Shown here in pieces: positions 4,854 to 50,321 of a stretch of DNA of 64,000 nucleotides; positions within the stretch are counted from its first letter, which is position 1, and each line of letters starts with the position of its first letter. The notes beneath the pieces were generated by a model. The model worked only from the letters and a program-made list of their open reading frames with translations. It was not told where the DNA came from and made no database searches. The position numbers and the translations under genes were made by a program. Source of the DNA: the human T2T-CHM13v2.0 reference genome, Homo sapiens; NCBI RefSeq assembly GCF_009914755.1, contig NC_060936.1; one strand, written 5' to 3'.

Positions 4854-5011
4854 TTTAGGGCCTTTTATAACAAAAGGCGGCCCAGGACAGAAGCAAATAC
4901 TCCTTGAGCACGGTAGCACCAGAGATGTTAATTACCAAAGGAGAAGGGTCAATGCCATCTTAATAGTAGAACCTGCTTTCATTCTGCGAGATAACTTTAT
5001 CTGTAGAAGAC
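4854..5011. repeat. Inverted repeat IR1, left arm
   Basis: Reverse complement aligns without gaps to 5935-6092 at 135/158 by hand count. Confidence 0.93.
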
Positions 5012-5616
5012 AAACAATACGTGTCTTCTACACGTACATTATACCCAGAAGTATAATGATCCAGAAGGAGTATAATGATCCAGAAGGAGTGAGGTGGTGC
5101 CATAACTGGTAGGGAGATTTACTTGGAACAGAAACTCTCACAGTCTTACCCCAAATCATGGGGCCAGAGACTGTTCCATTCCTCTTAAGAAGACGACAAA
5201 AGCTCCATCAGCATCTGCTCCAGCCCAAGGGCAGTGTTTTTGAGCTGGAAAAAGGAACAGGACTGGCCTCTGCCCTAGCCCAGCTCACTCTTAGGCGGTA
5301 TAGTGAGGAGGTGGGTGGGTTATGGATATCGGCTCCCGGGTCCCAGTCCTGCATCCTGCCCTGCTCTGCTTTCAATTCTTGTGCAGCCTTTCAGAACAAG
5401 AATCGCTTCAACACACATCCAACTTCACGCTCAGGGAAACAGGTGTGGGTGGAGTCCAGGTGGGGAAAATTCCCACCGCCTGATGAACTGATGAGCCTCT
5501 AGCCAAGGCAAGGCGAGGGGATGGAGGGAGCTGTGGCCAAAAAGACAGAGGAGACGTCAACTCTTGCCTGTGGATCACCAGGCAAGACAAGAACAGATGG
5601 ATGCACGCTGGCCTAC
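5001..5616 (-). other. Candidate GT-AG intron inside the IR1 spacer (minus strand)
   Basis: Donor GAG|GTAGGC at 5617/5616; acceptor tattgtttgtcttctacAG|at at 5001/5000; motif evidence only. Confidence 0.3.
5050..5090. repeat. Perfect 19-bp tandem duplication agtataatgatccagaagg x2
   Basis: Copies at 5050-5068 and 5069-5087. Confidence 0.9.
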
Positions 5617-5934
5617 CTCAGCTTCTCTTCTGTCTCTCTCTAACAAAACAGAAGAAGAATAACCCTCTTCTGGGGACACAAATGGGATTTCCTGGACTGC
5701 TGGGTCACACCTATAATGGTATCTAATCAAAATTCCTTTATGGCAAGGTATAGTGAGTTGCTGCTTTAGAAAGCTGCACTTGGTAAATGCATCCCAATGA
5801 ATGAGATGGATATTCTGTGCATTCACGTTCATTCCTCAGAGGCCTGGTCCCCATGGACTGCACCAACTGGGCTTCCTCATCCTCTGGCTTCTGGCTGAGT
5901 TCAGGCAGTGGGAGGCGCTGGCAGGAAATATGAG

Positions 5935-6092
5935 GTCTTCTACAGATGAAGTCATCTAGCAAAATGCAAGCAGGTTCTACTATTAAGATGGCATTGACCC
6001 TTCTCCATTGGTAATTAACATCTCTGGCACTACTGTGCTCGAGGAGTACCTACTTTTCTCCTGGGCCTTCTTTCATTCTAAAGAACCCTAAA
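5935..6092. repeat. Inverted repeat IR1, right arm
   Basis: gtcttctacagatgaagtcatctagc...aagcaggttctactattaagatggcattgacccttctcc...ccctaaa; complementary to 4854-5011. Confidence 0.93.
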
Positions 6093-6149
6093 AATAATGA
6101 GCCTTTGTCTTAATGATCATATCTCCTTGTTAGTTGCTGTTGTGGCCGA

Positions 6150-6409
6150 AACCATGTTCTTCAGTGTATGGCTGCAGCTCCCATGGACTGGCCCCTCTCC
6201 TAATGTGGCCTCTCTCTTCTGGCCTCAGTATCCCATTCTCTTTCCCACCTTTTTCAGTCAAATGGTAGTGACTATTGACCACTCCTGCTACCCTGGGGTC
6301 AGGTTCCTTAACACTGACCATATCGTTGTAATCAGCCCCATCATCAAAATCTCTTCAATCACCCCTTGGAAGATGTTGTCCATTTCTTTCTAGGATTTTG
6401 ACTCAAACA
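6150..6409 (+). mobile_element. ERVL LTR 3' part (LTR33-like)
   Basis: gtaatcagccccatcatcaaaatctcttcaatcacccc...ttgactcaaaca resembles the LTR33 3' end. Confidence 0.5.
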
Positions 6410-7419
6410 AAAGTGCAGAATAATTTTGTGACTTTCATGGTTCAAGACTTGAAGATAGTCAGGTCTCTATATCTTAAGAAACCTGTCTAAAATTCATTCA
6501 ACAAACATTCATGCTTTTAGTAGTTATTATGGCCCAGGTACTGTTGCTGGGCCCTATAATGCACCTGTTGCATTATCCATTTAAATGGATAATGCAAGGT
6601 ATTTGCCTGAAGGTGGTCATTGTCTATGCTGCAAATATTATTCTTCTCTCATGATACACATCCATGTCTATCTGACTAGCTGTGGAAATTTTAATCATTC
6701 AGGTGTAAGTATCTTTAATATTCTTGCACAAACTAGTTCTACTGATTGAAACCTAATCATTGATGACTGAAGAAAATATTCCAAGGCTTTCAAGGATGCC
6801 ACATACCCAACATTACAAAGCACAGATTAAAACATGAATAGAACAGTACATTATTTTCTGGTTTGTGCTATACATTCTTTTGGTACCTATTGAAAAAAAA
6901 ATCACTTCAAAACCAATCCAGTTCCTTAAAAATTAGTAGGGTAATTCTATGATAAGATGATATAGAGCTCACACTGATAAAGTAAGTTGATGGTGCAAGA
7001 ATGTATTTATACTTTCCGGCCACTTTCTGTTATCTCAAGGATTTCCTGTACACACTATTCAGGTGATCTCAGGCCTTTGAATTTAATTATGACATTAAAG
7101 ATGTAATTTTAGCATTTTAGGGCCCTGAATTATGTCCAACAGAAGGCTTTATGGAGAGCTTTGGGGAAATTATGATTTGTGTCATTTCAGCCAAAATGCC
7201 ATCTCCTGAGGAATTTCTACATTGACTTTGATGTCAAGTGTTCCCCATGTGGCATGGCACAAATTCTTGAAATTCTGACAGATGTTACTTCATAGCCCAT
7301 GAACAAATACATACAGGGCAAATGTAGCAGGATACCATTTTTGAAACATCAAGAGATCTCTTCTCTTAATGGCCATAAGCCTTTGGCACCTTCAGCCTCA
7401 ATTTTCCAGTGGGAAATAA

Positions 7420-7572
7420 CTTTCCTTGACTTCTCTCTTAGTTTTCTCATCTGTCAACTATGGGTATTAACAGAGACTGCTTCCTAGGATTGTTTCATTG
7501 GACATGTTAATCTATGAAAATTAGTGCCTGACACATTGTTTATTAGTCTTCAATATGTAGAAGCTATTATTA
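7420..7572 (+). mobile_element. MIR SINE
   Basis: Core agttttctcatctgtcaactatggg...gtgcctgacacat...gctattatta. Confidence 0.7.
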
Positions 7573-8327
7573 TAGAACAATAAAGAAAAATGCATTCCTT
7601 AACCACCTGCTACTCATGAGAAAAAGAGGAGTAGCAGGAAAATAACAGGGTCTTGAGAGACTCTGAAAGAATCAATAGTATACTGAAGAATATGAATAAG
7701 TCAGTGCTCAACCACAGCAACTGTGAAGAATGTTCTCTCCCTGGATGGCAAGAAGATAAAAGGGAAGAAGTGACCTCACTGCAAACTCATACGTTCTGCA
7801 AGATGGCATCCCTACAATCAGACCACTGTGGCAATTAGGACTGGGATTTTTGAAAAGGTCACTGAATTGGAAATTGGGAAATAAGACTTTAAGTCCTATC
7901 TGTGCGACTTTAAATGAGTGATGCTAGTCTTGGGGGCTTAAGTAGCTTATTTACAAAATGAGGACAGTCTTCAAGGTGCCATTTTAGCTTTGAATGTCTG
8001 CGATGTTGATACACCAACTAGGGAGTCTTGAAGTTTCATCCTTAAGAGAAAATGGCAAATAATCACTGCTGACCTGAGAGACTTTTTAGGGAAAGCTGAA
8101 TCTAGGTCCATGATTGGGGTCATAACTTATTCCCAAACTAACAACATCTACATCTTTAGCATACCACAAGGTATGCAAAATAATGGCCCCAAGTAAGAGA
8201 ATGTTAAGTGATTTGTTGGTGTGCTCTCCTCACAAAGGTTTAGTGTACTGTGTCAGAGACTTCAGAATGGCTTCCAATGAAACGAGTTTTAAGGTTCAAA
8301 TACTAAACAGTTCTAACATTAGCCATC

Positions 8328-8717
8328 TGTGTTAGTCCATTTTGCACTGCCATAAAGGAATAGCTGAGACTGAGTAATTTATAAAGAAAAGAGGTTTATT
8401 TGGCACACAGTTCTGCCAGCTGTGCAAGTATGGTACCAGCATCTGCTCAGCTTCTGGTGAGGCCTCAGGAAGCTCTTCCTCATGGTGGAAGGTGAAGAGG
8501 GAGCCAACATGTCACATGGTGAGAGAGGGAGCAAGAGAGAGAAGAAGAGGTCCCAGACTCTTTTTGACAGTCAGATCTCATGGTAACTCATTAACAAGCC
8601 AAGCCATTCATGAGGGATCCACCTCCATGATCTAAACGTCTCCCATCAGATCCCACCTCCCACATTGGAGGTCACATTTCAACATGAGATTAAAGTACAC
8701 ACATTCAAACCATATCA
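8328..8717 (-). mobile_element. MaLR solo LTR (MSTB-like)
   Basis: tgtgttagtcc...aaaccatatca with TG...CA ends and a 5-bp TSD ccatc on both sides. Confidence 0.9.
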
Positions 8718-9361
8718 CCATCTGAAAAAAGTAGGTAACACAGAAAACATTTTCCTTCTGGGTCCTTAAACAATTAAGTTTTGCTCCAGGAGTAGCTGCA
8801 GAAAATTTGATACTCACAACACAAACACTGTGTACCATGAGTCTACGTCCCTGGTGTGCCTGTGAGCTTTACCCCTCAGAACTCCTTAAAACAAATTGCT
8901 GTCTGCATGCACCTGAGATAGACCCAGTGTCTTCCAGCTCTGTGGCTCTGTTGATTGGCTCCATCCCTGTGATTAAAACTGATGAAAGTCCAGGTCTTTG
9001 AAGCACTGGAATGCAAGAATTTCATCAATTTCAATTGCCTTCTGGCTTCTAGAATAAGAACCCACTGGGAAGCCAGACCAAGTAATCTGACCTGGTAAAA
9101 TTGAGAAAATGAACACATTGCTTTTGTCTAAATTGACTGAAGATCCACTGGGGGAATCACACTGTGTAAGGGTCTCAGGGAAAGTTTTTAGAAAGCACAT
9201 CCCAATCCACAGGGAAGAATCTGCCCTCATGGCCTGGGCCTTCCATCCCAACCTCCTCTGCCCTCCTGGGTTCAGAAATCTGCTCTCTACATCTTCCAAA
9301 GTCGTCCCATGTCCACACAGCCTCTGTAGTACTGGAAAATTCCCAACTTGTTCCTAATGAT

Positions 9362-10172
9362 TGTGGCAAATGGAATAATACTTCCCTGATATATTTGGCC
9401 GTGTCTCCATCCACTTTTCATCTTGAATTGCAGTTCCCATACTCCCCACGTGCTGTGGGAGGGACCCAATGGGAGATAATTTAATCATAGTGGCAGTTAC
9501 CCCCATGCTGCTGTTCGCACGATAGTAAGTGAGTTCACAGGAGATCTGATGGTTTTATAAGGGGCTTTTCCCCCTTTTACTCAGCACTTCTCCTTCCCGC
9601 CACCATGTGAAGAAGAACGTGTTTGCTTCCCCTTCTGCCATGGTTGTAAGTTTCCTGAGGCCTCCCCAGCCATGCTGAACTGAGTCAATTAAACCTCTTT
9701 CCTTTATAAATTTGCCAGTTTCAGGTAGGTCTTTATTAGCAGCATGAGAATGGACTAATGCATCCCCCTACAACCAAAAAATATGCTCGTGCCCTAATCC
9801 TTGAAACCTGTGAACATGTTAGCTTACATGGTGAGAGGGACTCTGCAGGTATGATTAAGTTAGGGATCTTGAGATGAGAGATTATCCTGAATTATCAGGG
9901 TAGGCTCAAATCACCGAGGCCCCTACAGGAGGGAGACAACATGATGAAAGAGGGGACATCATAATGATGAAGGCAGAGCTTGGAACAGGAGCAGCCTCTA
10001 GAAGCTGAAAACAGCAGGGAAACAGATTTTCCCCTTGAGCTTCCAGAAGACACACAGCTCTGCCTATACTTCCACTTTAGCTCAGTGAGATGTCAGAGAC
10101 AAAAAAGCGTGTGCTGTTTCAAGTCACTCAATTTGTGGCATTTTGTTACAGCAGCAGTAGGGAACCTATACA
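9362..10172 (+). mobile_element. MLT1D-like solo LTR interrupted by a THE1 LTR
   Basis: tgtggcaaatggaataat...[THE1]...ccctaatccttgaaacctgtgaacatgttagcttacatgg...ttgttacagcagcagtagggaacctataca. Confidence 0.8.
9387..9762 (+). mobile_element. THE1 (C/D-like) solo LTR nested in MLT1D
   Basis: tgatatatttggccgtgtc...gatctgatggttttataagggg...gtcaattaaacctctttcc...ggactaatgca; ttccc/tcccc TSD-like flanks. Confidence 0.9.
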
Positions 10173-10234
10173 GCTATCTACAGTGTTGCCTCCCTGCTCA
10201 GGATGGGGACTGGGTGTGGATTCTGTCTGAGATG

Positions 10235-10385
10235 CCCACTAACTGTGTGGATAAGTGACCTCAATTTCCACACCTGTAAAATAGGGTGACAGCAGCTCCT
10301 GTCTCATGCATTATTTTAATGGCTATTATCCTTAAAACAGTATGCAGCTCATTTCAAGAATTACATAAATGTTAGCTATTACTGT
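10235..10385 (+). mobile_element. MIR SINE
   Basis: ctgtgtggataagtgacctcaatttccacacctgtaaaataggg...aaatgttagctatt. Confidence 0.6.
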
Positions 10386-10725
10386 GATATTTAATATCAA
10401 TGTTCAACTGCTTACTATTGCAAATGTTACAATGTTGAGATCGCTCCAAGGATGTACTTTCCTCAACTCTGTACCAAAGGTATTATTGTTATAGTTTCCA
10501 CTCCAGAATCTCATGTGCCCCAAAGATTCCTGTTTAGTTATTAAAAGTGGGTGTGGGAAGGAGATTTCATATTGCCCCAGCTGGAGCAGACAGTCTGAAA
10601 TGGAGCCTTTGACAAACATATGCCTGTAGGTAATTATAAAAAGTAGTGCTGCATACAGATAGTATATATTTTGCAGCCCTGCCAATATCACAGTGTCATC
10701 AAGCTCTCCAGGCTTCTAGCAGATA

Positions 10726-10886
10726 CAGGGCTGGGACTAGGGTGAGACTGAGCTGCTTAGGCCTCTAAATTTAAGGAGCGCACTCTCAGGCACACACCCT
10801 GGACTGAGTAAACTTGAGAGTGAGCACTTCCCTAAATTTTGTGTCCAGGTACCTCACTAGATTAATACACCCTAATCTAGGTCCTG
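10726..10886. mobile_element. hAT MITE (MER96-like), internally palindromic
   Basis: Terminal inverted repeats cagggctgggactagggtg...caccctaatctaggtcctg; degenerate 8-bp TSD agcagata/agcaaacg. Confidence 0.7.
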
Positions 10887-10994
10887 AGCAAACGCAAATG
10901 AGTAGAAAAGGCCTCAACTGGAGATTCATAAAGTCTGCTAGGGGAAAGCATGCAATGACACAAAGGCAAGGAAATTATTAATATATAATCCTAC

Positions 10995-11371
10995 TGATAT
11001 GGTTGGGCTCTGTGTCCCCACCCAAATCTCATCTTGAATTACAATCCCCATAATCCCCACATGTCAAGGGAGAGACCAGGTGGGAGGTGATTGGATCATG
11101 GGGCGGTTTCCCCCATGCTGTTCTCGTGATAGTGAGTGAATTCTCATGAGATCTGATGGTTTTATTGAGTGTTTGACTGTTCCTCCTACACACATGCTCT
11201 CTCGCTGTCCTGCTACCATGTAAGACATGCCTGCTTTCACTTCTGCCATGATGGTAAGTTTCCTGAGGCCTGCCCAGCTGTGTGGAACTGTGAGTCAATT
11301 AAATCTCTTTCCTTTAAAAATTACCCAGTCTTGGATACTTCTTTATATCTATTTGAAAAAGAACTAATACC
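10995..11371 (+). mobile_element. MaLR solo LTR (MSTA/THE1D-like)
   Basis: tgatatggttgggctctgtgtccccacccaaatctcatcttgaatt...gaactaatac; cctac/cctat TSD. Confidence 0.9.
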
Positions 11372-12289
11372 CCTATATAACATCCCTTCAAAACCAATTC
11401 TTAGAGACTGGCTGGAAGTGCTGGGCAGGCAATGTTCTACTTCATAGTATTTGCTCATTTTTAGAATATTTGCTTGTGGCAGTGACTCTTCCAAAGTCAA
11501 CACCCGCAAATGCGGATGTGGTCATTGTTACAAAACCCCAAGTCCATAGATCAGAGATCTGGGGGGTTGATGCCTACCAGGTCATCTGGTTATATCCACC
11601 TTCTCATGACCAGGCCTCCAGACTGCCCTTTCACAACAGCCATCCCCCAAATGTCCTCTAACCTGTGAGTGCACGGATTCAACCCCCCTCTATCTCTTAC
11701 TAATCTCTCCCTCCTTCACTTCTTTCATTTCAAGATGGAACTCATAACGGTATAACCCATTTCACAGGGCCATTAACACTAAACAGTTACCATCTGGGTC
11801 TGATGCTTAGGACTGTCTAGAGTCAGTTACTTGTATCACCATAAAGAATATCACCTGTTGTGTTCCTGCCTGGAGGTAACTCTGGAACAGAGCACCAGGT
11901 ACATTTAACATGATATTTGCTAAATACACAAAACAAAAAGCAAATAAATAAATGGAGGAACCAACTTGCAAAGAGTAAAAATGATGTAAACTCTTCGCCT
12001 GCGTAGAGTGAAGGTCTCTGATTCTGTGTGGATCCCATAAACCAGTCTTCCCCACATGCAAACAGAGCCACCCCAGCCCTTCGGAAGGAGAATCCTGGAG
12101 AAACTCTTTGGTGACTCAGGCACAGGTCTGGGGAGGTCTCTTAGAAGGCTGACATTCATCCAGGGACCTGGACCATGAGAGAGATCCAGAAGGAGGAATG
12201 AGCTTTCCCAAACAACATTGACGAATGAATGATCAAAAGCCAATGAATCCACTTTGCAGGTAGAGAAGCAACACTTACAAAAGCCTTGG

Positions 12290-12650
12290 TGAAACAAAAG
12301 GTTTGAACGATGCAATGAGAGAGAGCCAGTGCAAAGGGAGCACAGTAAGAGAATTGGCAGAGGGTCAAGGTGGGCAGTTCCAGGGTGTACATGACCTGAC
12401 AGGTAAAGAGTCTGTGTCTCATCTTTACTGCAATGAAAAGTTATCCAGGGATGTTAAACTAAAGAGTGATGTGGTTTCATTTGCATTTGAGATGACTCTT
12501 CCTGCTGTGAGAGGAACGGCTTGTAAGGTAGAATTGGGAGGACCAATTAGGAGGCTGATGAGAAAGAAGACAGCATCCTGGACCAGGGTCATGAAATTAG
12601 GAGACGGGAGGATATCATCAGATTTAAAATACATTAAAGGTGAGCTCAGG
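12290..12650 (-). mobile_element. L2 fragment
   Basis: gagtgatgtggtttcatttgcatttgagatgactcttcctgctgtg...ttaggaggctg typical of antisense L2. Confidence 0.6.
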
Positions 12651-12934
12651 ACTTGAAAAGCATTGTCAGGCGTGGGGGTGGCCAGTGGGTTGGAATGCTT
12701 TGTAGCACTGAACAAAGCTTGTTCTATTTTTCTCTCTCTCAGCAAAGAAATGCTATTTTTTATACACATAAGCCATATTTGGTGAGAGCAAAGGGATTTC
12801 ATCATTTATGTAAACCTTTATCGAGGACCTCCCAAGACTCAGGTTTTTGGTGATAAGGGTAAAACCTTTTATGCCCTACAGAAGCGACAGTGTCACGGAA
12901 GAGACACTCCTAAGGAAGGTTTTCTCTGCACTCC

Positions 12935-13545
12935 TGCCGTCTCCCCTCCTGCATCTACCTTTCCCAGCCTCCCCGACTCAGCAGACAGCAACTCTATCCG
13001 TGCAACTTGCTCAGCGACGGTCATTCTCTCTTCTCTTTGTCTCAGGCTCCTCGTCCAATTTATCACCCAATCCTATCGGCTCCACATTCACCACGTCTGC
13101 CCACCTGCCCTGCTACAACTTCTCTGGCCCCGTCTCTCATCTGGGTGCCTTGCTCCTGCCCATTCATCCGACAGTCCCTTCTCTGCACAGCAGCCAGAGT
13201 GAATCGTTAAGAGGTCAATCAGTTCGTGGAGCCCAGGGCGCTCCAGTTCCTTGAGAGTAAAAGCCAAGGTCCTCATAACCGCCCACAAGGTCCTGAGCCC
13301 ATCCGGTTCCCGTCGCTTGTCCAATAGCTCTCCTTCTCCCTCCTCCCGCTCCTTCTCCCTCCTCCCTCTCCTTCTTACTCCTCCTTCCAGCCACCCTGTC
13401 CTCTTCACAGTGACCCGGGCGGGGCAGCTGCCAGCCCAGCTTGGACCTTTCCATCCGCCTCAAGTTGACTTTTCTTTGATGTCCACATAGCTCATTCTAA
13501 AGTCTCCTTCAGGACATTGCCCAATTGGTAGTTTCTCACTTTTAC
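12935..13545 (+). mobile_element. L2a fragment (continues after the CA tract)
   Basis: gcaactctatcc...ttgctcag...tctgcacagcagccagagtgaatc...acaaggtcctg. Confidence 0.65.
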
Positions 13546-13560
13546 ACATTTGAAAGCTCC

Positions 13561-14066
13561 ACACACACACTCAGACACACACACATTCTCACACACACAG
13601 ACACACACACTCTCAGTCACCCTCTCACACACATTCAGACACACACACTCTCAGATACCCTCTCACACACACTCAGACACACACACACTCTCACACATTC
13701 AGACACACACACTCTCAGACACCCTCTCACACACTTTCAGACACACACACACACGCGCTCACATGCACACTTGACATACAGACACACACAACACAGACAC
13801 ACACAGTCAGATACATACACCAGACACAGACACACACATTCAGACACACACAGACATGCACTCAGACACACTCAACACACACTCAGACATACACACAGAC
13901 ACACACACACTTGACACACACACATCCAGACACACACACACTCAACACATTCACACACTCGACACAGACACATTTGATACACACACTTGACACACACTCG
14001 ACACACATTCAGACACACACAGACACACACACACACGACACACACACACATTCAGACACACACACA
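13561..14066. repeat. Complex (CA)n-rich microsatellite, about 500 bp
   Basis: acacac runs punctuated by ctcagac/attcagac/ttgac units. Confidence 0.95.
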
Positions 14067-14069
14067 GCT

Positions 14070-14280
14070 GAACTCATCTCCCTGCTTTGTTCTTCTTTCT
14101 AGCACTCATCACCGCGGACAGGCGACGCGTATTTGCTTATTTATTTGGGCACTGTCTGTTCCCCCTCATTAGGATGCCGTGTCCATGCAGGCAAGACCCT
14201 GTTTTCTGTGCATTTGCAACAGGGCTTGGTGCATGGTACCTGCTTGATAAATATGAGCATTGCTCAGATGCATGGATGAC
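14070..14280 (+). mobile_element. L2a 3' end
   Basis: tagcactcatcacc...tttgcttatttatttg...tccatgcaggcaagacc...ttgataaatatg. Confidence 0.6.
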
Positions 14281-15601: not shown

Positions 15602-15936
<335 letters not shown>

Positions 15937-16225: not shown

Positions 16226-16556
<331 letters not shown>

Positions 16557-34326: not shown

Positions 34327-34611
34327 GTGAGTAATACTGCTATAAAATAAAGGTGCACAAGTTTCTCTTTGAGATTCTGTTTTCAATTCTTTTGTATATA
34401 TAGCTAGAAGTAGAATTGCTAGATCATATATTGATTCTACTTTTAATTTTTTAAGGAAATGCCATATTGTTTCCATAGCAGCTGTAAATTTTACATTCCC
34501 ATCAACATTATGCAAGGTTTCTGCTGTCATCACATGTTCTCTTTTCTTGACAGTGGCCATCGTAATGGGTGTAAGGTGACAGTTATCTCATTGTGGTGAG
34601 GAGAATGTGGT

Positions 34612-34671
34612 TTTTAATTTTTTAAGGACGGTTCCTTAAATTTTTAAGGAACCGTCCTTAAAAAATTAAAA
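34612..34671. repeat. Perfect palindrome, 29-bp arms with a 2-nt spacer
   Basis: ttttaattttttaaggacggttccttaaa-tt-tttaaggaaccgtccttaaaaaattaaaa. Confidence 0.97.
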
Positions 34672-34740
34672 GTAGAATTAATATATGATTTAGGAGTTCT
34701 ACTTCTAGGTATATGTACAAAAGAATTGAAAACAGAATCA

Positions 34741-36613: not shown

Positions 36614-36739
36614 GGATTCTTTTGAGAAAGTGGGGAAGGTGCTTTTTTTCAGCCATATTTATGCACCACATTGGAGATAGAAATTCTTTCAGCTCATCTA
36701 ACATGGCACTGGAACATATTACTGAGAATCAGGGAAATA

Positions 36740-40180: not shown

Positions 40181-40989
40181 CTACTATATTCTAAGATGGT
40201 GGTTGTGGAAACCATGGTGAACCAAAAAGCAGGAGGCTATTACAATAGTCACACACAGAAATGTAAAATTCTATCTGTTTTCAGTTCTGTGGATGAGAAT
40301 TGCAGGACAGGAAGAGGAGTGTTGCCTGACCAGGGGTGTGTCCCAGGCCCCCCCAAAGAAGGGGCAGTTTATTAATGGCCACATGGGAACACATTGTACA
40401 TGGCCATTAGGATACATTTTCTGTCTTTCATCTCTGCCTCTCTGAGGACTTGGATTCATTATTCTTTCTCTTTACGTCCTCATCTCCCTCTACTTCCTGG
40501 GCCCACCCTTCAGATCTCAAGGTGACCTGCCCTGGGTCCAACCTCATGAACAGTGACTGAACCTCTGTCTTGGTTTCAACTCTGTGTTTGCCAGGAAGGG
40601 ATTTTCATGGCTGCTGCCTAGATCGGGTGTAACCTGAAGGTAAGGCCCATCTCCATCAAGCAGGTGGGGGGCCCGTTGCAATCACGTCGGTTGTGGGATG
40701 GGGCAGTAAATACCAGAGATCATTGGTAACAGTGAGGGAGCCAACTGTAACCGGGGTAGAGACTCCAAATATAAGACTGCCACAGTTACACAGTAATTGT
40801 AATAAGAGCAGAAACTAAGACCAAGTCTCTGATGGAATGTGATGTGAACAAAAGCAGAAAGCTCCTGTACACAATGGTCACAGCTATGAGGCAGAATGCA
40901 CAGATGTGGACCAAGACTGCAAAGGATTAGGCAAAAATGAAGACACCATATGGCACCAAAACTGTCCCTGGCTTAGTCTCTACAGTGAG

Positions 40990-41205
40990 TCTGTTGGGAT
41001 TCTAACCAGTCTACCGCTTTCGGCAGCATGACCTTGGACACGCTGAGTAATGGATCTGTGACTCGGTTTCCCCAGCTGCAAAATGGAGATGATGACAGCA
41101 CCAACCTCACAGAAGTGTGAGGATTCAGTAAGTGTGGACAAATCAGGGGCACAGAACCATGTCAGGCCTTCATAAAGCACTGGGGAAATGTTAACCATTA
41201 TTGTT
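40990..41205 (+). mobile_element. MIR SINE
   Basis: gcatgaccttggac...tctgtgactcggtttccccagctgcaaaatggagatgatgacagcaccaacctcac. Confidence 0.75.
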
Positions 41206-41732
41206 ACAGACATTTATTTGAAGTATAGTTTCCTTTCTTCAGGTTTTTCTTAGAACACAAAACAATCTCAATAAATGCCTAGCCTTAATCCACACAAAAG
41301 TGTAATAATCTAAAGAGGAAAAGATGTATTCTTCAGCTGTTCAATCATTAAAAGTGTTGCTATTGATTCTGATTTTTATCGTGTATTTATTCAAGGTATT
41401 CCTTCTCTTTCCTATCCATGCCACTCCTGATTTTCTGCAAGTAAGGCTTTGGATGTCAATGAGGACACCGTGAAATATCAAACATTTGGGCGGAATGCCA
41501 CCCCAGCTGCAGATGACAAGCAGCGACCTTGCCCAGTCTCCTACCAGAGTGAGTTTCCTGCTCTACCAGAACCAGGCATGGGAGAGCCACCAGCACTGTG
41601 CAGAGGCCCCTCTCAAGCTGCCAGAGAAAAGTACAAATCGCCCCTGTTCACTGGTTGAGTGTCGCTGCAGTTTTCGAGGCTGTCACGTTTCTGCATCCGT
41701 TAGCATGTCTGTGACAGAAACTGAGGCCAACT

Positions 41733-41785
41733 AACAAAGGGATGGAAGCAACAAAGGGATGGAAGCATCCCTGCAGAAGGGATGC
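41733..41785. repeat. 17-bp tandem duplication followed by an 8-bp hairpin
   Basis: aacaaagggatggaagc x2 (41733-41766); gcatccct-gcaga-agggatgc (41765-41785). Confidence 0.85.
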
Positions 41786-43695
41786 GAGAAGATAAATAAA
41801 AACAGAAAAATGCAGGAGAAAATCAAAGAGAAAAGGATAAAACTGCCATAAATGGCATCCAGTTGCGATCTGTTAAAAGGGTTCTGACTTTATTCCTGCC
41901 TCCCAGGCCCCTCCTCCTACACTCTGTCCCCACAGATCAGCACCTACAGGCATTAAATTTGTTGCACAAAAATATGCACCTGCCATAATTCCAGAGTCCC
42001 AAATATGGTGAAAATATAATTATCTATTCATTGATCTATTTAACTGTAAAGGACTCTATCAATCGTCTATCAATAAGGAATTTTATATACCAATCTATCT
42101 ATCCATTTGATAATCAGTACCCCAGGCTATCCTGCTTCAATAGTAAGAAAAAAACATTCTCCTCTGTCTCGGTGAAAAAACAAGATTCAGCAACTCATGA
42201 GCCTTCAAATTGAGCTGTAATGAATATTGTGTCGTGCTGGTGATTTCAACCGAATAATTCCAGGAAGGCTGGAAAAGGGGTCGGTCTATCTTCATCCCTT
42301 TTGTCGCCTAAAAGCAAAATCATGAGAAAGAAGTCCAGAATAAAGATGGTAATCCTGGGCTGTAAATGCTGGAACCTCATCCATGATGCCAATTGCTCCA
42401 TAACCACACGGACGTGAACCCCAAAAAGCATGAGATACAAGGTGAGAGTAAACACTGCCCCTGTATGTACAGGTAATCCCTCTGCTAGCTGTGGGTTCTA
42501 AGGCCGACTGCTGAAAAGATTTGACGGAAGTTGCCACTTGGGAAGCTTTTTTTGGAAGTTAAAACAGAAAAACTCAGCGCCTTCCAATGATGCTTTATTT
42601 TATTTGTCAAATATTCATTGTCACCCACCCTTACCCCAATTTCCCAAGGCAACTCTTTTCTGGTTCTTTCTCAGGGACCAGTGGTTGACTACTAGTAAAA
42701 AGGAAAAAGCCGAATATTCACCCCTCATGCTTCATACGAAATCACATCTCTACTTTGCTGCTTGTATTTTGGAAAAATTGCTTAATCCATTTTTTTCAAG
42801 CAGTAATACACTTGGTGATAAACATATTTAAATTGAATACTTCAGCAACGAAAGACTGTGTTCCTTAACCATTTATGCAAGTTCTAGCTTCTTAACTAGG
42901 AAAGAAATAGTGGCAACGACATGTCAGGTCTGTAGCTACATTTTTAAATAATGGGCTTCAAAAAAAAAAAAAAAAAAAGAAAAGGAAAAATCCCTTCCTC
43001 TTAAGGAGGAAAAAAAAGACATCTTTTATCACAAAATCTGTTCCTTCTTTAGCTGTTTTTAATCGATATCTACACCTTTGGGTAGGAAAATAAATCTGTA
43101 TCTTTGAATAGCGTCATTTCCAACAACAGAGCAAGGCTCTGAGATGTGTTCTTTTTTATTAACAAAGGTGTTGTTAAATATCTGCACCATATATGTTTGA
43201 TTTAGTCACTTTAGAAAACCCTAGAGAATGGCTGAGGGTTGTTAGCAGCTGGGTCTATAAATTGTAAACCTTCCCCAGGGCAAAGTGCCACTTGTGATGT
43301 TTGTTACTGTTATTTCATACGACATTTATTTAACCAGGAATAGGAAGAGTGGTGATTCAGCGGTGGTCTGATACCACAAAGGTGAAAAGCGAGTCAGGCA
43401 GGAGGTGCCGAGAATTAGGGCACACACCCTGTCTCAGAGGAAAGTTGGGGCTCAGCCCTACTCGTTGTCAAGAAGCCAGACACCCATTTTTTTCTATGTG
43501 ATATCACCTAGAATTTTTAAATTAGCGATTAATCCAAACTTTAAAACAGACTCTGCGTGGGAAGAACAGAATCCACTTGCGAGCTAGATTCAGGCTGCAA
43601 GCTCCTACCTTCCCAACCTCTGGTTAACAGCTTCCTTGTTGTACCAGAACGGCCACCCAGCCTACTTCATCCTGGCTCCTAGCGTCCAAGCAGCA

Positions 43696-43791
43696 ACTTC
43701 AGCAAGCTACTGCAACTACTGCAGAAATAATAACAGACACATACAAGAAGAACCCAGCTCTGGAAATATGATCAGGGGTTTACTGTAAACA
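43696..43791. repeat. Third copy of the IR2 unit (complementary to 49113-49205)
   Basis: acttcagcaagctactgcaactactgcagaaataataacagacacatacaagaagaacccagctctggaaatatgatcaggggtttac; about 84% to the reverse complement of 49113-49205. Confidence 0.88.
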
Positions 43792-43991
43792 GAAAGAGGA
43801 CAACCACTTACCATGTATATATGGTAATCTGTGTGGACTTTATAGTACAACTCAGAGGAATTTCCTCTTTTCTTATCATATACCAACTTTTTACCACCCC
43901 TTTACAAAACACAAGCATTATCAATTACTGCCAAGAGCACCTCACATATAAAACAAAAAAAATCAAACACAAATAAATTTCATTTAATTCA

Positions 43992-44307
<316 letters not shown>

Positions 44308-45464
44308 TCACTCTTTACCCTTATATAATTTTTAACAATCTAAGAAAAGAAGGAATCAGAAAAAAAAAACACAAATATTTTTTATTTCTCCCATTCTTTA
44401 AAAAAAATTACCAGAAATTGCCCCCTTTAAATTTCAAAATTTTCCTAATTTTACTGTGCCAGCCCGACTCTCATACCTCACTGATTATATCATTCCCACA
44501 CCTGATGCTCCAACAACCCAGGGTATACTTTTAGCTCAGTCCTATAAAAGGCTTCATAACCTGCACTGATCTGGATTCAACGCAGCTGCCGATGGACAAG
44601 AAAAACACATCTGGAGACTCTGCAGCCGTTCTTTCCAGCTGTTTGTGACTCCCGAAAGACACGTGAGCACTTGGCACCATCAGGCACACATCAGTTCGGC
44701 TCTCTTCCACCCCCAGGCACAGTCATCCTGAGCATTGAAGACACTTTAGAAAATGGTTGGCAAGTTGCTCTTGCACTGGGATAATTTTAGACAATCTGAT
44801 ACTTTGACGCTAAAAACATGTTTGGAATTGGTGACTGTAAACAATAATCGTAGCTTGAACTCTGACCCCGGCATGGTTGTATTTTGACTTACCTGGGTAG
44901 GATGCACTATGGAGGGAGCTGCTATAATCCTAATACTGTGGTGCTTAAACTTTTCGACATTATTTTGCTTTCTGTCTTGGGAGGGAGGTATTCTTCTATG
45001 TCTCTATTAGCCACTTCTGGACTTTTCCATCATCATTATATAGCTGCTTACCTCGCCTGTGGCAACAGACACTGGGTTTGTGAATAACAGGACAATGATA
45101 AAGGCTATGTGAGCAAAACGGAACAGCAGCTTAAAAAAGATAAAAGTTTCTTTCTCTCTCACGTAAATACTATCTAGTGCTAAGCACTCCTGGGCTAGAA
45201 TTGTGCCTCCATGGCTGAGAGGGAGCCTGACCCCTTGCCTCTTTTTCCGTCAATGTCCTTACCATTCTCATACAACGAGGCGACTGCAACAGCTCCAGGC
45301 ATCACATTCCAAATCCACCCAGCAGGAAGGATACAAGGCCTTAGGAAGGATCCATCTGGAAAGCCCCATTTGATGCTTTAACATGCAGAGTAGAACGGCT
45401 ACACCCAGCTACAAGCAGTACCAGGAAATGAAGCTTTTATTCCAGCTGGCCATGTGCTCAGTGA

Positions 45465-45753
45465 TTTTTGTTTGTTTGAGACAGGGTCTCACTTTGTCGC
45501 CCAGGCTGGAGAGCAGTGGTGTTATCTCTGCTCACTACAACCTCCACTTCCTGGGTTCAGGTGATCCTCCCACCTCAGCCTCCCAAGTAGCAGGAACTGC
45601 AGGTGTCCACCCACCATGCCCAGCTAATATTTTGTAGAGATGAGGTCTCATCATATTGTCCCAGGCTGGTCTCAAACTCATGGACTCAAACCACCTGCCT
45701 GCCTCAGCCTCCCAAAGTGTTGGGATTACAGGTGTGAGCCACCACACCCGGCC
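45465..45753 (-). mobile_element. AluJb-like
   Basis: gagacagggtctcactttg...gatcctcccacctcagcc...cccaaagtgttgggattacaggtgtgagccacc. Confidence 0.92.
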
Positions 45754-46064
45754 CAGGTTTTTGTTATTGTTTTGGGTTTTTTTGTTTGTTTCTTTTGTTT
45801 CTTGAAAGGAAGAAGAGCAGGTATTGGAAGAGACCATCAGAAGGCCCCTCCACAGTCAGGCCCCACCCATTTTTAGACACAGCTCTTGTTCTGGCGAGTC
45901 TCATTACTTATGGTTTATTCTGGGAACAGGATTTAAGGGGTCGCCTCCCCACTCAAACTCATGACGGCCTTAAGGTCTCTATGCCACTTGGGGAAGACAG
46001 AGAGAAATGAACTGAGCTGCGAGGACAATAATTAAAAGAATCTGCAGGTGAAGCACATTACTAT

Positions 46065-46250
46065 TTTTACCAACGTGCTTTTACGCATTGACTCCAGAAA
46101 TCCTTACAACCATCCTCCGAGAAAGCACTGTCAGCCCCATTTCATCCATGAGGAATCAGGAGCCCAGAAGACTAACTGCCCCAGGTTTCACAGTTAGGAG
46201 TGTGAAGAGCCGACTCCACACCCTGAAGCTAAGAGCAGACTTCTTAGCTT
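46065..46250 (-). mobile_element. MIR SINE
   Basis: tccttacaaccatcc...cccattttcatccatgaggaatcaggagcccagaag...ctgccccaggtttcacag. Confidence 0.65.
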
Positions 46251-48256
46251 CAACTAAGACGCTTCTCCCACACCCACCCGCAAAGGGGCATTCAGATGTG
46301 TCTCGCCCAAACCATCCAAGCCCGAGCACCGGTCGCTTTTCTGCCTTTGAGGTTTCTCACTTGAAAGACATAGTTTGATCTCCCCGTCCCGCTGTGTGCT
46401 GGGCACTGTGGACAGCGTTGACCCTCCCCCTCCGAGCATGAACAGGTGAGTAATGTCTGAAAGAGGACACTCAGGGCTTTGGCTTAGCTTGTAGAATTTG
46501 TTGGTGGGGAGGGGGGGGCCGAGGGGGCACAAAATGTTTTTAAATCTTTTGTGGAAATTATTTACCTTTTAAAATGGGAGATTTTTGCATAGAAATCTCG
46601 ACATCTACCTGTCCTCAGGAGAGAGGAAGATCCAGGAACCCAGAGCCCTCATTCCTGGATAGCGACCTTTGTGGTAGCTGAGGGGCAGCTGTCACTTCCA
46701 GCCAGGAGGCATCTCTGTGGAGACCCTGCTGCCATCTGGCTGCTTCCCCAAACTTTGCTTTACTTGCCTGGCTTTGAGGGCACTTGAGTTTATGACCCAT
46801 GGGAAGGCGGGGCAAAGACACAGATAGTTATGCTACAGGAAATGTCCGTAATTGGTGAATTTCAGGCTACCACAAGCCCCCTGTACCTGCTGCATAGATA
46901 AATACCTGAAAAGGACCTCAGGGCCATTCATCCGGTACCTTTTTACCATCATTAAATTGAAGAGAAAATTGAAACAGTGGCTGGGATCTCTCTTTGATCT
47001 ACAGCAAAGGGATGTTAATAACCATGTTTCTGGGGAGACAGCTGATTAACACGGAACTTAGCAGTATTCCAGTAACAGCCATAGTCAGGAACATTCGTAG
47101 TGAATTAATTTCTAACCAGCTCCTGAATCCATAAATGAGAGGATGATTTGAGTTGTCTGGCCACTCCCTGCTGGGGGGTGACAGCAGCTTGAGCTCTGTG
47201 GGCTCAAAGGCATCTTTTGGGGGCACAAAGTGAATGACAAGGAGTTATGCCATCAAAAGCTTTGTTGCAAAATATATATTTTAAATCTATAAACTCCTAA
47301 GAGCAGAGTTTGGTTTTAAGTCTCTTAATGATTGTACAGATGCTAACAGTACAGAAACCGCCACATGTCTTCTTCTTGGCTCTTTATGCATAAATGTTTA
47401 GGTGGTTCATCTGTCTTAATCTATGGTTGCGTCATAAGATTTCTGACTTGTGTTTCATAGAAATAGTTCTAAACACCCAATCAGACAGGCACTGCAAAGC
47501 AGGCTGAGAAAACTCTGATGATGGTCAGGTATGAGACATGTTTCTCAGTACGTTAATCGGGGTACCATAAACAAGTGATTGTAACATATTTCAAAGACGT
47601 TGTATATTATAAATGTATACAATGATTATTTGTCAATTTAAAATGATAATAAGGTCATCCAAAAACACAATAGCTTACATAAGACACAGGTTTACTGTTC
47701 TTTTTTCCCCCTCATGTAGAGAGTCCTGGCCTAGTAGGGTAGTTCTGAAACTCTCAACATATGGCTTCTACCTCTGGAACCAAAGTGGCTGCTTTGGTTA
47801 CCACTATCACATCTGCATCCCAGCCTGTAGGAAGCAAAGAACCAGAGAACACACATTTTGTCTTTTTAAAGGAAAGGCCTAAGTAGTACATGAGTTGCTT
47901 CTCACATCACATTGGCAACAGCTTCATTGCAGCGTGGCTTCACTGAGATCCAACAGAGGCTGGGAAATGTCATCTTTAGCTGGGCATCCATGGGCCCAGC
48001 TAAAATCCGGGAGTTAACTTATTCAAGAAAATATGAGAAAAGATCCTGTTTGGCAATTAGCAGTCACATTTACACTGGAGACAGGAGACCTTGAATTTTT
48101 TTAAGAAGTTCAAGATGCTACCCTTTCTGCACACAACCTCGTATGTAATGCAATATTAACTCTTGGAAAAGAGGATGGAGGAGCATTCATGACGAGGTTA
48201 ATGTCTCATATGATCCCCAATGTAAGAATAGACATGTGAAAACATATAGCATAGTA

Positions 48257-48487
48257 CAGGCTGAGTATCCCTTACCCGAAATGCCTGGAACCAGAAGTGT
48301 TTTCGATTTTGTTCAGATTATGGAATATTTGCATCACACTTACTGGTTCAGCATCCCTAATCCGAAAAATCCAAAATCTGAAAGCCTCCAGTGAAAATTT
48401 CCTTTGAGCACCACGTCGGCACTCAAGAAGTTTCCAGTTTTGGAGCATGACGGATTTCAGTTTTTCGGATCGGGAGATGTTCAACTG
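48257..48487 (+). mobile_element. Tigger4a (MER46A/Zombi) MITE inserted in a MIR
   Basis: caggctgagtatcccttacccgaaatgcctggaaccagaagtgtt...tttcctttgagcaccacgtcggcactc...gatgttcaac. Confidence 0.85.
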
Positions 48488-48718
48488 TGTTTCAGACCAT
48501 GGGCTCTGGAATTGGAAACCTTGGTTTGGAATACTGCTTCTACTAGTACCTTGTGGCAGTTTGATCTTAGACAAGTTGATTTACCTTTCTGTGCCTTTGT
48601 TGTTTGTACAAATGTGGTGGGGTGCCCGTGGGGGTGGCGGCTGATTGTACCTGGCTTATGGGATATCATGAGAATTAAGTAGCACAATGCTTACAAAGGC
48701 CCTAAAATTGCGCCTGGC
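48488..48718 (+). mobile_element. MIR SINE
   Basis: catgggctctggaatt...gatcttagacaagttgatttacctttctgtgcct...gagaattaagt. Confidence 0.65.
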
Positions 48719-48778
48719 CTCAGCCCCATTCCTGCCTGTGCCCCAGCCACTGGGAAAAGGGGAAGGGAAAAGGAAGCT

Positions 48779-48999
48779 CAGGTGTATTCCTGATAAATCC
48801 ATGTAAGTCACACAGGTGTATTCCTGATAAAGCCAGGTAAGTCACACAGGTGTATTTCTGATAAATCCAGGTAAGTCTGATAAATCCATGTAAGTCACAC
48901 AGGTGTATTCCTGATAAATCCAGGTGAGTCACACAGGTGTATTTCTGATAAATCCAGGTAAGTCACACAGGTGTATTCCTGATAAAGCCAGGTAAGTCA
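48779..48999 (+). repeat. 34-bp minisatellite, about 6.5 copies (caggtgtattyctgataaakccakgtragtcaca)
   Basis: Units begin at 48779, 48813, 48847, 48900, 48934 and 48968, plus a partial unit at about 48877. Confidence 0.95.
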
Positions 49000-49161
49000 G
49001 TCCCACGGCCTCCCCTCGAGGCGTAGGAGGCAGAGAAGTGGCACCTTAACACTTTTTTTCCTTCTCAATATTCTGAGGAGGAGACAGGCTCTCTGTGATA
49101 TGGCTCAATTCATGTTCATGATAAACCCCTAATCATATTTTCAGAGCTGGATTCTTCTTGT

Positions 49162-49309
49162 TTGTGTCTGTTATTTCTGTAGTAGTCGCAGTAGGTTGGT
49201 GAAGTCTTTGCTAGTAAACGTCGCCCTAAACTTAAAAATCATAACATCATTCTGCTTCTCTGAAACAATAGCTGCAATTTCTCAGGCTCTTGAAGCACTA
49301 GGATTTCAA
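49162..49309. repeat. Inverted repeat IR2, left arm
   Basis: Reverse complement aligns to 50174-50321 at about 131/149 with two 1-bp gaps. Confidence 0.93.
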
Positions 49310-49436
49310 CATTAATGCAAGTGCTTTAGAGGAAGAATTGCCACCACATTTACATGCACAGATCTCTTTCCAAAGCTCTTCAAATGTACAACCCTGAGAG
49401 CCCCAGAATCAGTTTAAATCAATTCGGAATGTGCAG

Positions 49437-49670
49437 GTAAGTTAACAGTGTTGAGCATCCATCTACCTTCAGAGGGTCAGAGGGTTGGAAACACACTAGA
49501 AAAAGTCTCATGTTCAGAGACACGAATGGTCAATAATATGGTTATAAATATCATCTTAATTCTGCAAATAATTTTACTATTAATAAATTCCTTTGCCACA
49601 TACACATCCTCCTACAGTATTCTTAGAACACTCCCATCTGATGGTGTTGGACTTGCCTCTTTCCTCACAG
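49437..49670 (+). other. Candidate GT-AG intron (234 nt) inside the IR2 spacer
   Basis: Perfect donor CAG|GTAAGT at 49436/49437; strong acceptor cttgcctctttcctcacAG|G at 49670; ctgat branch-like motif about 30 nt upstream. Confidence 0.4.
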
Positions 49671-50173
49671 GATCTATGTGTGAACAAACGAGAATTATAT
49701 TCCAGGCGTACTTGTTTTCATTGTAGGGCCCTGATGTGCAGAGGGAGTGCTGAAGAGACAAATGCCGCTGGGAAAAGTGGCCTCATTTATTCAAGATCTG
49801 ATAGGTGTTTCCATTGGAACCAAATGTTCAGAACGTCTGCACATTAGAATATTTTGGTTTGAGCCCAAATATTTCTATTTGAGATTTATGGAAAATGAAG
49901 ACAGTGGATGGCACTAGACCAGCGTGTAAGCAGGAGTAACATCTGTGATATTTAGCGACTGGCTAAATGCTTGCTCGCTGTAAGTTGTGTCCCCACATAC
50001 GAGCAAAGATCACTTCTGCCTGTGTGGCAGAAAGGGTCACAAATTCTATCTGAAAGTCTCTGAGCAAGCCACACCATTCTAAACGATCATCACATCTTTG
50101 AGTAATTTGAACAGAATTTGATCTTTTATGGTGTTTTTTCCCCATCCCGTTCCCTCTTCCAGCATTGAAGCCC

Positions 50174-50321
50174 TTGAAATCCTAGATGATTCAAGAGCCC
50201 TGGAAATTGGAGCTATTATTTCAGAGAAGCAGAATGATGTTATGATTTTCAAGTTTAGGGTGACATTAACTAGCAAAGGCTTCACCCACCTACTGCAACA
50301 ACTGAAAAATAACAGACACAA
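50174..50321. repeat. Inverted repeat IR2, right arm
   Basis: ttgaaatcctag...tttcagagaagcagaatgatgttatgattttcaagtttaggg...aataacagacacaa. Confidence 0.93.

What the first reader, a model, noticed from the sequence alone, without database searches (positions are those of the whole stretch)
4854..50321. Two independent 'intron-in-the-loop' long-hairpin cassettes on opposite strands: possible natural spliced hairpin-RNA (dsRNA) locus
Seen: two unrelated inverted repeats, neither recognisable as a TE, with very similar geometry: arms of 158 and about 148 bp at 85-88% identity, spacers of 923 and 864 bp. Each spacer holds a well-formed candidate intron. For IR1 it is on the minus strand (GAG|GTAGGC 5617/5616 to ttgtcttctacAG 5001), followed by a strong donor CAG|GTGAGT at 4097/4096 and an acceptor gtcctttttcAG at 241. 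For IR2 it is on the plus strand (CAG|GTAAGT 49436/7 to ctctttcctcacAG 49670). Splicing would keep both arms essentially exonic and shorten the loops to about 320 and 630 nt. Established: intron-spliced hairpins are efficient dsRNA/siRNA precursors, long duplexes are ADAR/Dicer substrates, and inverted duplications occur in mammalian germline small-RNA clusters. Inference: divergent lncRNAs making long non-Alu duplexes (endo-siRNA/piRNA precursors or editing substrates). Splice motifs alone can arise by chance.
Basis: partly seen in the sequence, partly recalled or inferred. Interest (0 to 1): 0.8.

Follow-up and report, generated by a model that had tools for sequence, protein, structure and literature searches.

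The report
Two old intronic inverted duplications
Two unrelated stretches of about 150-180 bases were each copied backwards about 0.9 kb away inside a huge intron of the human gene TMEM132D; they look like ordinary old replication errors, not a dedicated hairpin-RNA gene.

Summary
Both inverted repeats are real. IR1 is 4854-5011/5935-6092, 158 nt at 85%, and extends to 4831-5011/5935-6116. IR2 is 49162-49309/50174-50321, 133 of 150 columns identical. They are unrelated to each other. In the whole T2T genome each arm matches only its partner, so they are not transposon pairs or MITEs.

IR1 has a junction signature: an 11-bp perfect mini-hairpin at the inner end of the left arm, and a 10-mer present three times. 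A third local inverted duplication at 34373-34739 has the same architecture. This fits paired orientation-reversing template switches during replication.

The arms pair in predicted folds on either strand without splicing. The host gene runs on the minus strand, so both hairpins would already sit in its pre-mRNA.

The "intron in the loop" claim holds unevenly. IR1's splice pair is chance-level: 32% of 908 random intervals do as well. IR2's pair is unusually strong: 0 of 908.

I found no CpG island, RefSeq model, Rfam match or second genomic site with extended complementarity. Transcription, small RNAs, editing and conservation could not be tested.

Verdict: ordinary neutral long inverted repeats of a known kind. 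IR2's intron is a minor open lead.

The parts
4831..5011 (.). IR1 left arm (ungapped core 4854-5011)
   Evidence: Its only genome-wide match is the right arm.
4915..4978 (.). IR1 high-identity core of the left arm. It pairs with about 5968-6031 and shows 3 differences in 64 columns, against 25 in the outer 86 columns.
   Evidence: (Fisher p = 1e-4).
5002..5032 (.). Perfect 11-bp mini-hairpin with a 9-nt loop at the inner end of the left arm. Its second half, 5023-5032, is a direct copy of the first 10 nt of the right arm.
   Evidence: I2, D4; the 10-mer occurs in the window only at 5023 and 5935 (+) and 5002 (-).
5012..5934 (.). IR1 spacer, 923 nt. It includes a 19-nt tandem duplication at 5050-5090.
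5839..5933 (.). Fragment of an old interspersed repeat that ends at the inner edge of the right arm.
   Evidence: 35 other genomic matches at 72-94% to a related copy.
5935..6116 (.). IR1 right arm (ungapped core 5935-6092)
5001..5616 (-). Motif strength is at chance level.
   Evidence: donor 8.3 bits, acceptor 10.5 bits. 32% of 908 random intervals hold an equal or better pair.
49162..49309 (.). IR2 left arm
49310..50173 (.). IR2 spacer, 864 nt
49437..49670 (+). Candidate 234-nt intron in the IR2 loop, with consensus donor CAG|GTAAGT and a strong acceptor. This is motif evidence only.
   Evidence: The donor is among the 9 best and the acceptor among the 3 best in the window. 0 of 908 random intervals match the pair.
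50174..50321 (.). IR2 right arm

Best explanation
IR1 and IR2 are two independent, single-locus inverted duplications of ordinary intronic DNA. In each, a stretch of about 150-180 nt was copied in reverse complement about 0.9 kb from its source. [quoted passage not shown] This happened tens of millions of years ago, and the copies have since drifted. In IR1, part of the arm was later homogenised between the copies. They lie in a large intron of TMEM132D, which is transcribed from the minus strand. Any RNA hairpin they form is therefore first of all part of the host pre-mRNA, where a 130-160 bp imperfect duplex is a plausible passive substrate for ADAR editing. Shown: the repeats, their uniqueness in the genome, the junction motifs, and the folding potential. 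Inferred: the replication mechanism, the age, neutrality, and any editing.
For: The arms match only each other in the 3.1-Gb genome. The same search finds an interspersed repeat easily: 2862 first-look candidates, with the 40 scored lying at 73-100% identity. It also found 61-90-nt matches at 77-82%.

IR1 junction: a perfect 11-bp hairpin at 5002-5012/5022-5032, and a 10-mer present three times, twice direct and once inverted. A preprint describes this pattern for paired orientation-reversing events, in which a segment ends up triplicated (10.1101/2020.03.06.980458, section 6).

A third local inverted duplication, 34373-34457/34655-34739 at 93%, has the same architecture. It carries a 29-nt perfect palindrome beside one arm and a 17-nt triplicated piece. 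Its ancestral state can be read from other family copies, which span the left arm and spacer without a break (query 1-200, 4-225, 5-223 of 228). The right block is therefore the derived one.

Short perfect hairpins (stem >=11, loop <=12) are common everywhere: 5 in the 64-kb window and 10 in 250 kb of control, against 0-1 in shuffles.

There is no strand signal of RNA-level selection. G:U-compatible against A:C mismatches are 11:6 for IR1 and 4:3 for IR2 on the minus strand.

The uneven identity in IR1 fits homogenisation between arms. I saw that process described only in the abstract of PMC8604942 (search listing).

Long inverted repeats of this size are a known class. In the 330 of 656 rows I read of Lirex Table S1 (positions up to 4.24 Mb of a 7.08-Mb human contig), 9 had arms >=100 nt. 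That is about 2 per Mb.
Against: Catalogued short template switches are mostly tens of bases long and act within tens of bases. These arms and distances are several-fold larger.

The polarity of IR1 is unresolved. The hairpin analogy with the 34-kb element makes the left block the derived one. Against that, two blocks of an old repeat (5839-5933 and 6154-6201) are colinear with one other genomic copy at 57-nt spacing there and 220 nt here, which hints that the right arm is the insert.

IR2 shows no clear junction signature. It has only a 10-nt inverted match (49368-49377/50321-50330) touching the outer end of the right arm.

The window holds 2 low-copy repeats with arms >=100 nt, against 0 in 250 kb of control. 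Some local excess cannot be excluded.

IR2's loop intron is much stronger than chance. The 98%-identical 64-nt core of IR1 could also reflect constraint rather than conversion.
Confidence: 0.7

Rival explanations
1. Cis-acting intronic dsRNA elements of TMEM132D. The hairpins form in the minus-strand pre-mRNA and are kept by selection, for example as ADAR-editing platforms or as structures that shape processing of the very long intron.
For: Both repeats lie inside the TMEM132D transcription unit on the minus strand (hub table). The minus-strand duplexes are slightly more stable: -245.6 against -227.9 and -210.2 against -201.7 kcal/mol. IR1 keeps a 64-nt core with 3 differences while the outer 86 columns have 25.
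Against: The G:U excess on the minus strand is not significant (15:9 pooled). It is also expected from transcription-associated A>G bias, which I cite from memory. TMEM132D is listed among long genes without any ultraconserved element (PMC13513235, Table 4, one passage). There are no exons in the window for the structures to act on (hub table). Homogenisation between arms explains the core without selection.
Confidence: 0.12
2. One reading: unannotated spliced lncRNAs whose loop intron is removed to give a compact long hairpin. The hairpin would then be processed into endo-siRNAs or piRNAs, or be heavily edited. This is most plausible for IR2 on the plus strand.
For: IR2 has a consensus donor and a top-3 acceptor 234 nt apart, and 0 of 908 random intervals match this. 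I read a CTGAT branch-point-like motif about 30 nt upstream of the AG. After in-silico splicing, 132 of 148 arm positions still pair. Outside a minisatellite, the window has 4 perfect CAGGTRAGT sites against 1.3 expected.
Against: IR1's pair is at chance level. There is no RefSeq model in the window (hub table) and no CpG island. No AATAAA follows either repeat on the proposed strand. Rfam gives no match at gathering scores and only chance-level hits otherwise. No other genomic site matches the arms, so there is no parent gene or extended target of the kind typical of hairpin-RNA loci. From memory, long-hairpin endo-siRNA production is well shown in flies and mouse oocytes, not in human tissues.
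Confidence: 0.07
3. Relics of two low-copy DNA transposons of about 1.2 kb with long terminal inverted repeats.
For: The geometry fits: terminal inverted arms around an internal region of about 0.9 kb. IR2 has an 8-nt flanking direct match with 1 mismatch at 49143-49150/50330-50337.
Against: There are no other copies of arms or interiors anywhere in the genome. At this arm divergence, sister copies would be about 85-88% identical and easy to find. IR1 has no flanking duplication. 52 of 300 random boundary pairs give a direct match of >=7 nt under the same slop. I recognise no terminal motif of a known superfamily, judging from memory.
Confidence: 0.04

Closest known systems
Long inverted repeats / inverted duplicates of the human genome (Lirex and earlier Wang & Leung surveys; Chen et al. 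2017, PMC5398296)
   Same: Closely spaced arms of >=30 nt at >=85% identity with spacers under 2 kb, often in long introns of nervous-system genes. I saw that last statement only as cited in the Lirex introduction. Non-repetitive inverted duplicates are abundant: 4.3 million in human by a loose definition.
   Different: These two are at the long end of the range, where about 2 per Mb have arms >=100 nt. No published list that I could read names these loci.
Template-switch mutations and paired orientation-reversing replication events (Loytynoja & Goldman 2017, PMC5453318; Tremblay-Belzile et al., preprint 10.1101/2020.03.06.980458)
   Same: A nearby sequence is copied in reverse complement, creating an inverted repeat. 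A second reversal restores direction and leaves a short segment triplicated. IR1 and the 34-kb element show this.
   Different: Published events are mostly tens of nucleotides long and act within under 50-400 nt. Here the arms are 148-182 nt and lie 0.9 kb apart. Proving the event needs an outgroup sequence, which I did not have.
Hairpin-RNA (hpRNA) endo-siRNA loci of Drosophila and mouse oocytes, and engineered intron-spliced hairpin constructs (all cited from memory; the LIRBase introduction, PMC8728187, summarises the fly cases)
   Same: A long inverted repeat that could fold into an extended duplex. For IR2, there is also a plausible intron in the loop.
   Different: No evidence of dedicated transcription or small RNAs. 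No second genomic site with extended similarity to act on. The arms are shorter than the >=400 nt used by LIRBase to define such loci.
Inverted Alu pairs in introns (the main ADAR substrates; cited from memory)
   Same: Intronic inverted repeats with 1-2 kb spacing that form dsRNA in pre-mRNA. The window and controls hold such pairs, and their arms give 70-108 matches in the 264-kb sample.
   Different: The IR1 and IR2 arms are single-locus sequence, not SINEs.

Membership tests
DNA transposon / MITE with terminal inverted repeats | Multiple dispersed copies in the genome | tested here: not met
   Arms and interiors match only their own locus. The positive control returned 2862 candidates.
DNA transposon / MITE with terminal inverted repeats | Target-site duplication flanking the terminal repeats | tested here: not met
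   IR1 has none at its extended ends. IR2 has only an 8-mer with 1 mismatch at shifted ends. 52 of 300 random boundary pairs do as well.
Inverted pair of interspersed repeats (Alu-Alu type) | Each arm belongs to a high-copy family | tested here: not met
   2-3 matches per arm in a 264-kb sample, against 70-108 for arms that belong to repeat families. The whole-genome searches agree.
Template-switch / U-turn inverted duplication | Reverse-complement copy of nearby unique sequence | tested here: met
Template-switch / U-turn inverted duplication | Junction signature (snap-back hairpin, triplicated short segment, microhomology) | tested here: inconclusive
   Present at IR1 and at the 34-kb element. 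IR2 has only a 10-nt inverted match at one outer end, which could be chance.
Template-switch / U-turn inverted duplication | An outgroup shows the ancestral state without the derived arm | not testable with these tools
   No other mammalian genome is held. For the 34-kb element, other family copies stand in as an ancestral proxy.
hpRNA / endo-siRNA hairpin locus | Extended duplex on a single transcript | tested here: met
   This is folding potential only: 133-157 arm-arm pairs in minimum-energy folds on both strands. Transcription of the minus strand is inferred from the host gene annotation.
hpRNA / endo-siRNA hairpin locus | Dicer-dependent 21-23-nt small RNAs from the arms | not testable with these tools
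   No small-RNA data are held.
hpRNA / endo-siRNA hairpin locus | A parent or target gene with extended complementarity | tested here: not met
   No other genomic match to either arm at E <= 10.
Intron-spliced hairpin | A used intron inside the loop | tested here: inconclusive
   At motif level, IR1 is at chance (32% of 908) and IR2 is exceptional (0 of 908). Junction usage cannot be tested here.
Known RNA families (Rfam 15, including miRNA precursors) | Match at the family's gathering score | tested here: not met
   0 matches in the window. The best sub-threshold hits are 13 and 23 bits, against gathering scores of 70 and 51.

The most novel reading that the evidence does not exclude
IR2 is a natural intron-spliced hairpin. 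An unannotated plus-strand transcript, antisense to TMEM132D, removes the 234-nt intron 49437-49670. The resulting RNA pairs its 148-nt arms into a long non-Alu duplex that is edited or diced. A wider form of the idea: long late-replicating neuronal genes are hot spots where 150-180-nt U-turn copying errors seed new structured RNAs. The link between arm length and Okazaki-fragment size is my speculation, and the fragment size is cited from memory.
Probability: 0.06. Interest if true: 0.7.

Novelty: new member of a known kind. Interest (0 to 1): 0.2.

Why it matters
As it stands, it matters little. These are two more examples of a catalogued class, non-transposon long inverted repeats in a long neuronal intron. 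The useful by-product is mechanistic. IR1 and a neighbouring element preserve junction motifs: a perfect snap-back hairpin and a triplicated 10-17-mer. These tie repeats with 85-180-nt arms and spacers of 0.2-0.9 kb to the same paired U-turn process described so far for much shorter events. If IR2's loop intron were really used, it would be a rare natural human counterpart of the intron-spliced hairpin design, and worth a look in existing RNA-seq data.

Tried and rejected

Transposon reading: rejected for lack of any other copy and of flanking duplications.

Relation between IR1 and IR2: none.

Strand-specific RNA selection from G:U against A:C mismatches: no signal.

Polarity of IR1 from the old repeat next to the right arm: one related genomic copy suggests an extra 163 nt in the window. 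However, 35 other family matches stop before the second block, and no further copy in my 314-kb sample carries both blocks. Searches of the flanks gave nothing informative. This is left unresolved.

Recursive splice sites of the host gene at the two minus-strand consensus donors (4091-4099, 44887-44895): by eye, no convincing pyrimidine tract upstream.

Coding potential around IR2: only short stop-to-stop frames, and I did not search them further.

Literature on TMEM132D antisense RNAs, editing or hairpins: searches listed nothing about this region.

A larger control sample was not possible. For arms >=60 nt, the window has 3 and the 250-kb control has 1.
Full report
THE OBSERVATION

Both inverted repeats exist at the stated places. 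IR1 has arms 4854-5011 and 5935-6092: 158 nt, 85% complementary, 923 nt apart. A gapped alignment extends it to 4831-5011/5935-6116. IR2 has an ungapped core of 117 nt at 88%. With small gaps it spans 49162-49309/50174-50321, with 133 of 150 columns identical and an 864-nt spacer. The two elements share no similarity: local score 13-14, against a shuffle mean of 13.5 and maximum of 17. Arm-arm duplex energies are -202 to -246 kcal/mol, against -43 to -65 for shuffled arms. The repeats are far beyond chance.

ARE THEY TRANSPOSONS?

The window is chr12:129,766,001-129,830,000 of T2T-CHM13, and the whole genome could be searched. With either whole element or single arms as query, each arm matched only its partner (E up to 10).

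The search is sensitive enough for this conclusion. It found 61-90-nt matches at 77-82% to an old repeat fragment in the IR1 spacer. A 228-nt piece of an interspersed repeat elsewhere in the window gave 2862 first-look candidates, with the 40 scored lying at 73-100% identity.

There is no convincing target-site duplication. Rfam gives nothing at gathering scores and only chance-level hits otherwise. The arms are therefore local inverted duplications of unique sequence, not inverted transposon pairs or MITEs.

HOW THEY PROBABLY AROSE

IR1 carries a junction signature. Its left arm ends in a perfect 11-bp hairpin with a 9-nt loop (5002-5012/5022-5032). The second half of that hairpin is a direct copy of the first 10 nt of the right arm. 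This 10-mer occurs in the window only at 5023 and 5935 on the plus strand and at 5002 on the minus strand, so it is triplicated.

A third, smaller element in the window has the same design. Its arms are 34373-34457/34655-34739 at 93%. A 29-nt perfect palindrome lies next to the right arm, and its first 17 nt repeat the inner end of the left arm. That element is made of an interspersed repeat. Other genomic copies run through the left arm and spacer without a break (query 1-200, 4-225 and 5-223 of 228). The right block is therefore the derived copy.

A long-range reversal followed by a very short-range snap-back that restores direction and triplicates a short segment is what a preprint on orientation-reversing template switches describes (10.1101/2020.03.06.980458, abstract and section 6 read). 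It also fits the broader four-point template-switch model (PMC5453318, passages read). Those published events are much shorter and closer, so this is an extension by analogy, not membership shown.

Which IR1 arm is derived stays open. The hairpin analogy points to the left block. Against that, two blocks of an old repeat flanking the right arm (5839-5933 and 6154-6201) are colinear with one other genomic copy, at 57-nt spacing there and 220 nt here. That points to the right arm as the insert. More copies could not be fetched, and none in my sample carries both blocks.

IR2 shows no clear junction signature. It has only a 10-nt inverted match touching the outer end of its right arm.

AGE AND DRIFT

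Kimura distances between arms are 0.17-0.19 for IR1 and 0.095 for IR2. With mutation rates of 1-2.2e-9 per site per year, which I recalled rather than measured, this gives roughly 40-95 and 20-50 million years.

IR1 is uneven. There are 25 differences in the outer 86 columns, 3 in the next 64, and 5 in the last 33 (Fisher p = 1e-4). The simplest reading is later homogenisation of part of the arms. I saw that process described only in the abstract of PMC8604942 (search listing). Constraint on a 64-nt core cannot be excluded. One paper lists TMEM132D among long genes with no ultraconserved element (PMC13513235, one passage).

Mismatches give no sign of selection for RNA pairing on one strand. 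G:U against A:C on the minus strand is 11:6 for IR1 and 4:3 for IR2.

THE SPLICING CLAIM

They are approximate and were used only for ranking.

- IR1's donor is equalled or beaten by 96 of 6626 GT sites, and its acceptor by 40 of 9088 AG sites. 32% of 908 random 930-nt intervals contain an equal or better pair on one strand or the other. This is chance level.
- IR2's donor is among the 9 best, and 5 of those are copies in a 34-bp minisatellite at 48779-48999. Its acceptor is among the 3 best. None of the 908 random intervals matched the pair.

So only IR2 has an unusually well-formed loop intron. Outside the minisatellite, the window has 4 perfect CAGGTRAGT sites against 1.3 expected. Y8NCAGR acceptor-like sites number 11 against 11.8 expected.

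Other points weigh against a dedicated gene:
- The window has no CpG island.
- No AATAAA follows either repeat on the proposed strand within about 2 kb.
- The RefSeq table supplied with the finding has no model here.
- Splicing is not needed. The arms pair in minimum-energy folds of the unspliced elements on both strands, with 133-157 pairs.
- TMEM132D is on the minus strand, so both hairpins would already be present in its pre-mRNA.

HOW UNUSUAL IS THIS?

I ran the same BLAST-based scan on the window and on 250 kb of arbitrary control sequence from five chromosomes.

| Low-copy inverted repeats (>=80% identity, spacer <=2.5 kb) | Window (64 kb) | Control (250 kb) |
|---|---|---|
| Arms >=100 nt | 2 | 0 |
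| Arms >=60 nt | 3 | 1 |

In the 330 of 656 rows I read of a published list for a 7.08-Mb human contig, 9 repeats had arms >=100 nt. That is about 2 per Mb, transposon-derived ones included (PMC5414712, Table S1 parts 1-2). It implies several thousand such repeats genome-wide, and a few hundred 64-kb windows holding two by chance. The spacers of those 9 range from 95 to 1894 nt, so two spacers near 0.9 kb are no signal.

Short perfect hairpins are also common everywhere: 5 in the window and 10 in the control, against 0-1 in shuffles. Chen et al. counted 4.3 million inverted duplicates in human under a loose definition and argued that a minority are expressed (PMC5398296, abstract and sections 6 and 12).

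VERDICT

These are real, non-transposon, old local inverted duplications of a known kind, best explained as products of replication template switching. They sit passively in a giant intron, where they could form dsRNA in the host pre-mRNA.

The spliced hairpin-RNA locus is not supported for IR1. For IR2 it is a low-probability lead resting on motif strength alone. Transcription, editing, small RNAs and conservation could not be tested here.

Noticed in passing
window 34373-34739: A third local inverted duplication, made from a piece of an interspersed repeat that looks L1-like by my recollection. Arms are 34373-34457/34655-34739 at 93%, closer to each other than to any other genomic copy (all <=85%). 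A 29-nt perfect palindrome lies at 34612-34640/34643-34671.
   Followed up: yes
window 48779-48999: A minisatellite with a 34-bp unit. It holds five exact plus-strand copies of the consensus 5' splice-site 9-mer CAGGTRAGT, about 440 nt upstream of the IR2 loop donor on the same strand. It accounts for 5 of the 9 such motifs in the window.
   Followed up: partly
window 6568-6597: A perfect 30-nt palindrome with no loop, about 450 nt to the right of IR1. It appeared as a 100% self-reverse match in the genome search and is far beyond chance for 64 kb.
   Followed up: partly
window 49368-49377 and 50321-50330: A 10-nt perfect inverted match. One copy touches the outer end of the IR2 right arm and the other lies in the spacer, 59 nt from the left arm. 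It may be a second templated piece of the same event, or chance.
   Followed up: no
window 5839-5933 and 6154-6201: Two blocks of an old interspersed repeat flank the IR1 right arm. They are colinear with one other genomic copy (locus L005) at 57-nt spacing there and 220 nt here.
   Followed up: partly
window 46224-46252 and 47975-48004: Two more perfect 11-bp hairpins with 7-8-nt loops. The density of such hairpins in the window is 5 per 64 kb, against 10 per 250 kb in controls.
   Followed up: no
window 4091-4099 (-) and 44887-44895 (-): Consensus 5' splice-site 9-mers on the TMEM132D sense strand. By eye, neither has a convincing pyrimidine tract upstream, so they are weak candidates for recursive splice sites.
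   Followed up: partly
window 13560-14066: A long imperfect CA-rich microsatellite with a 102-nt higher-order period.
   Followed up: no
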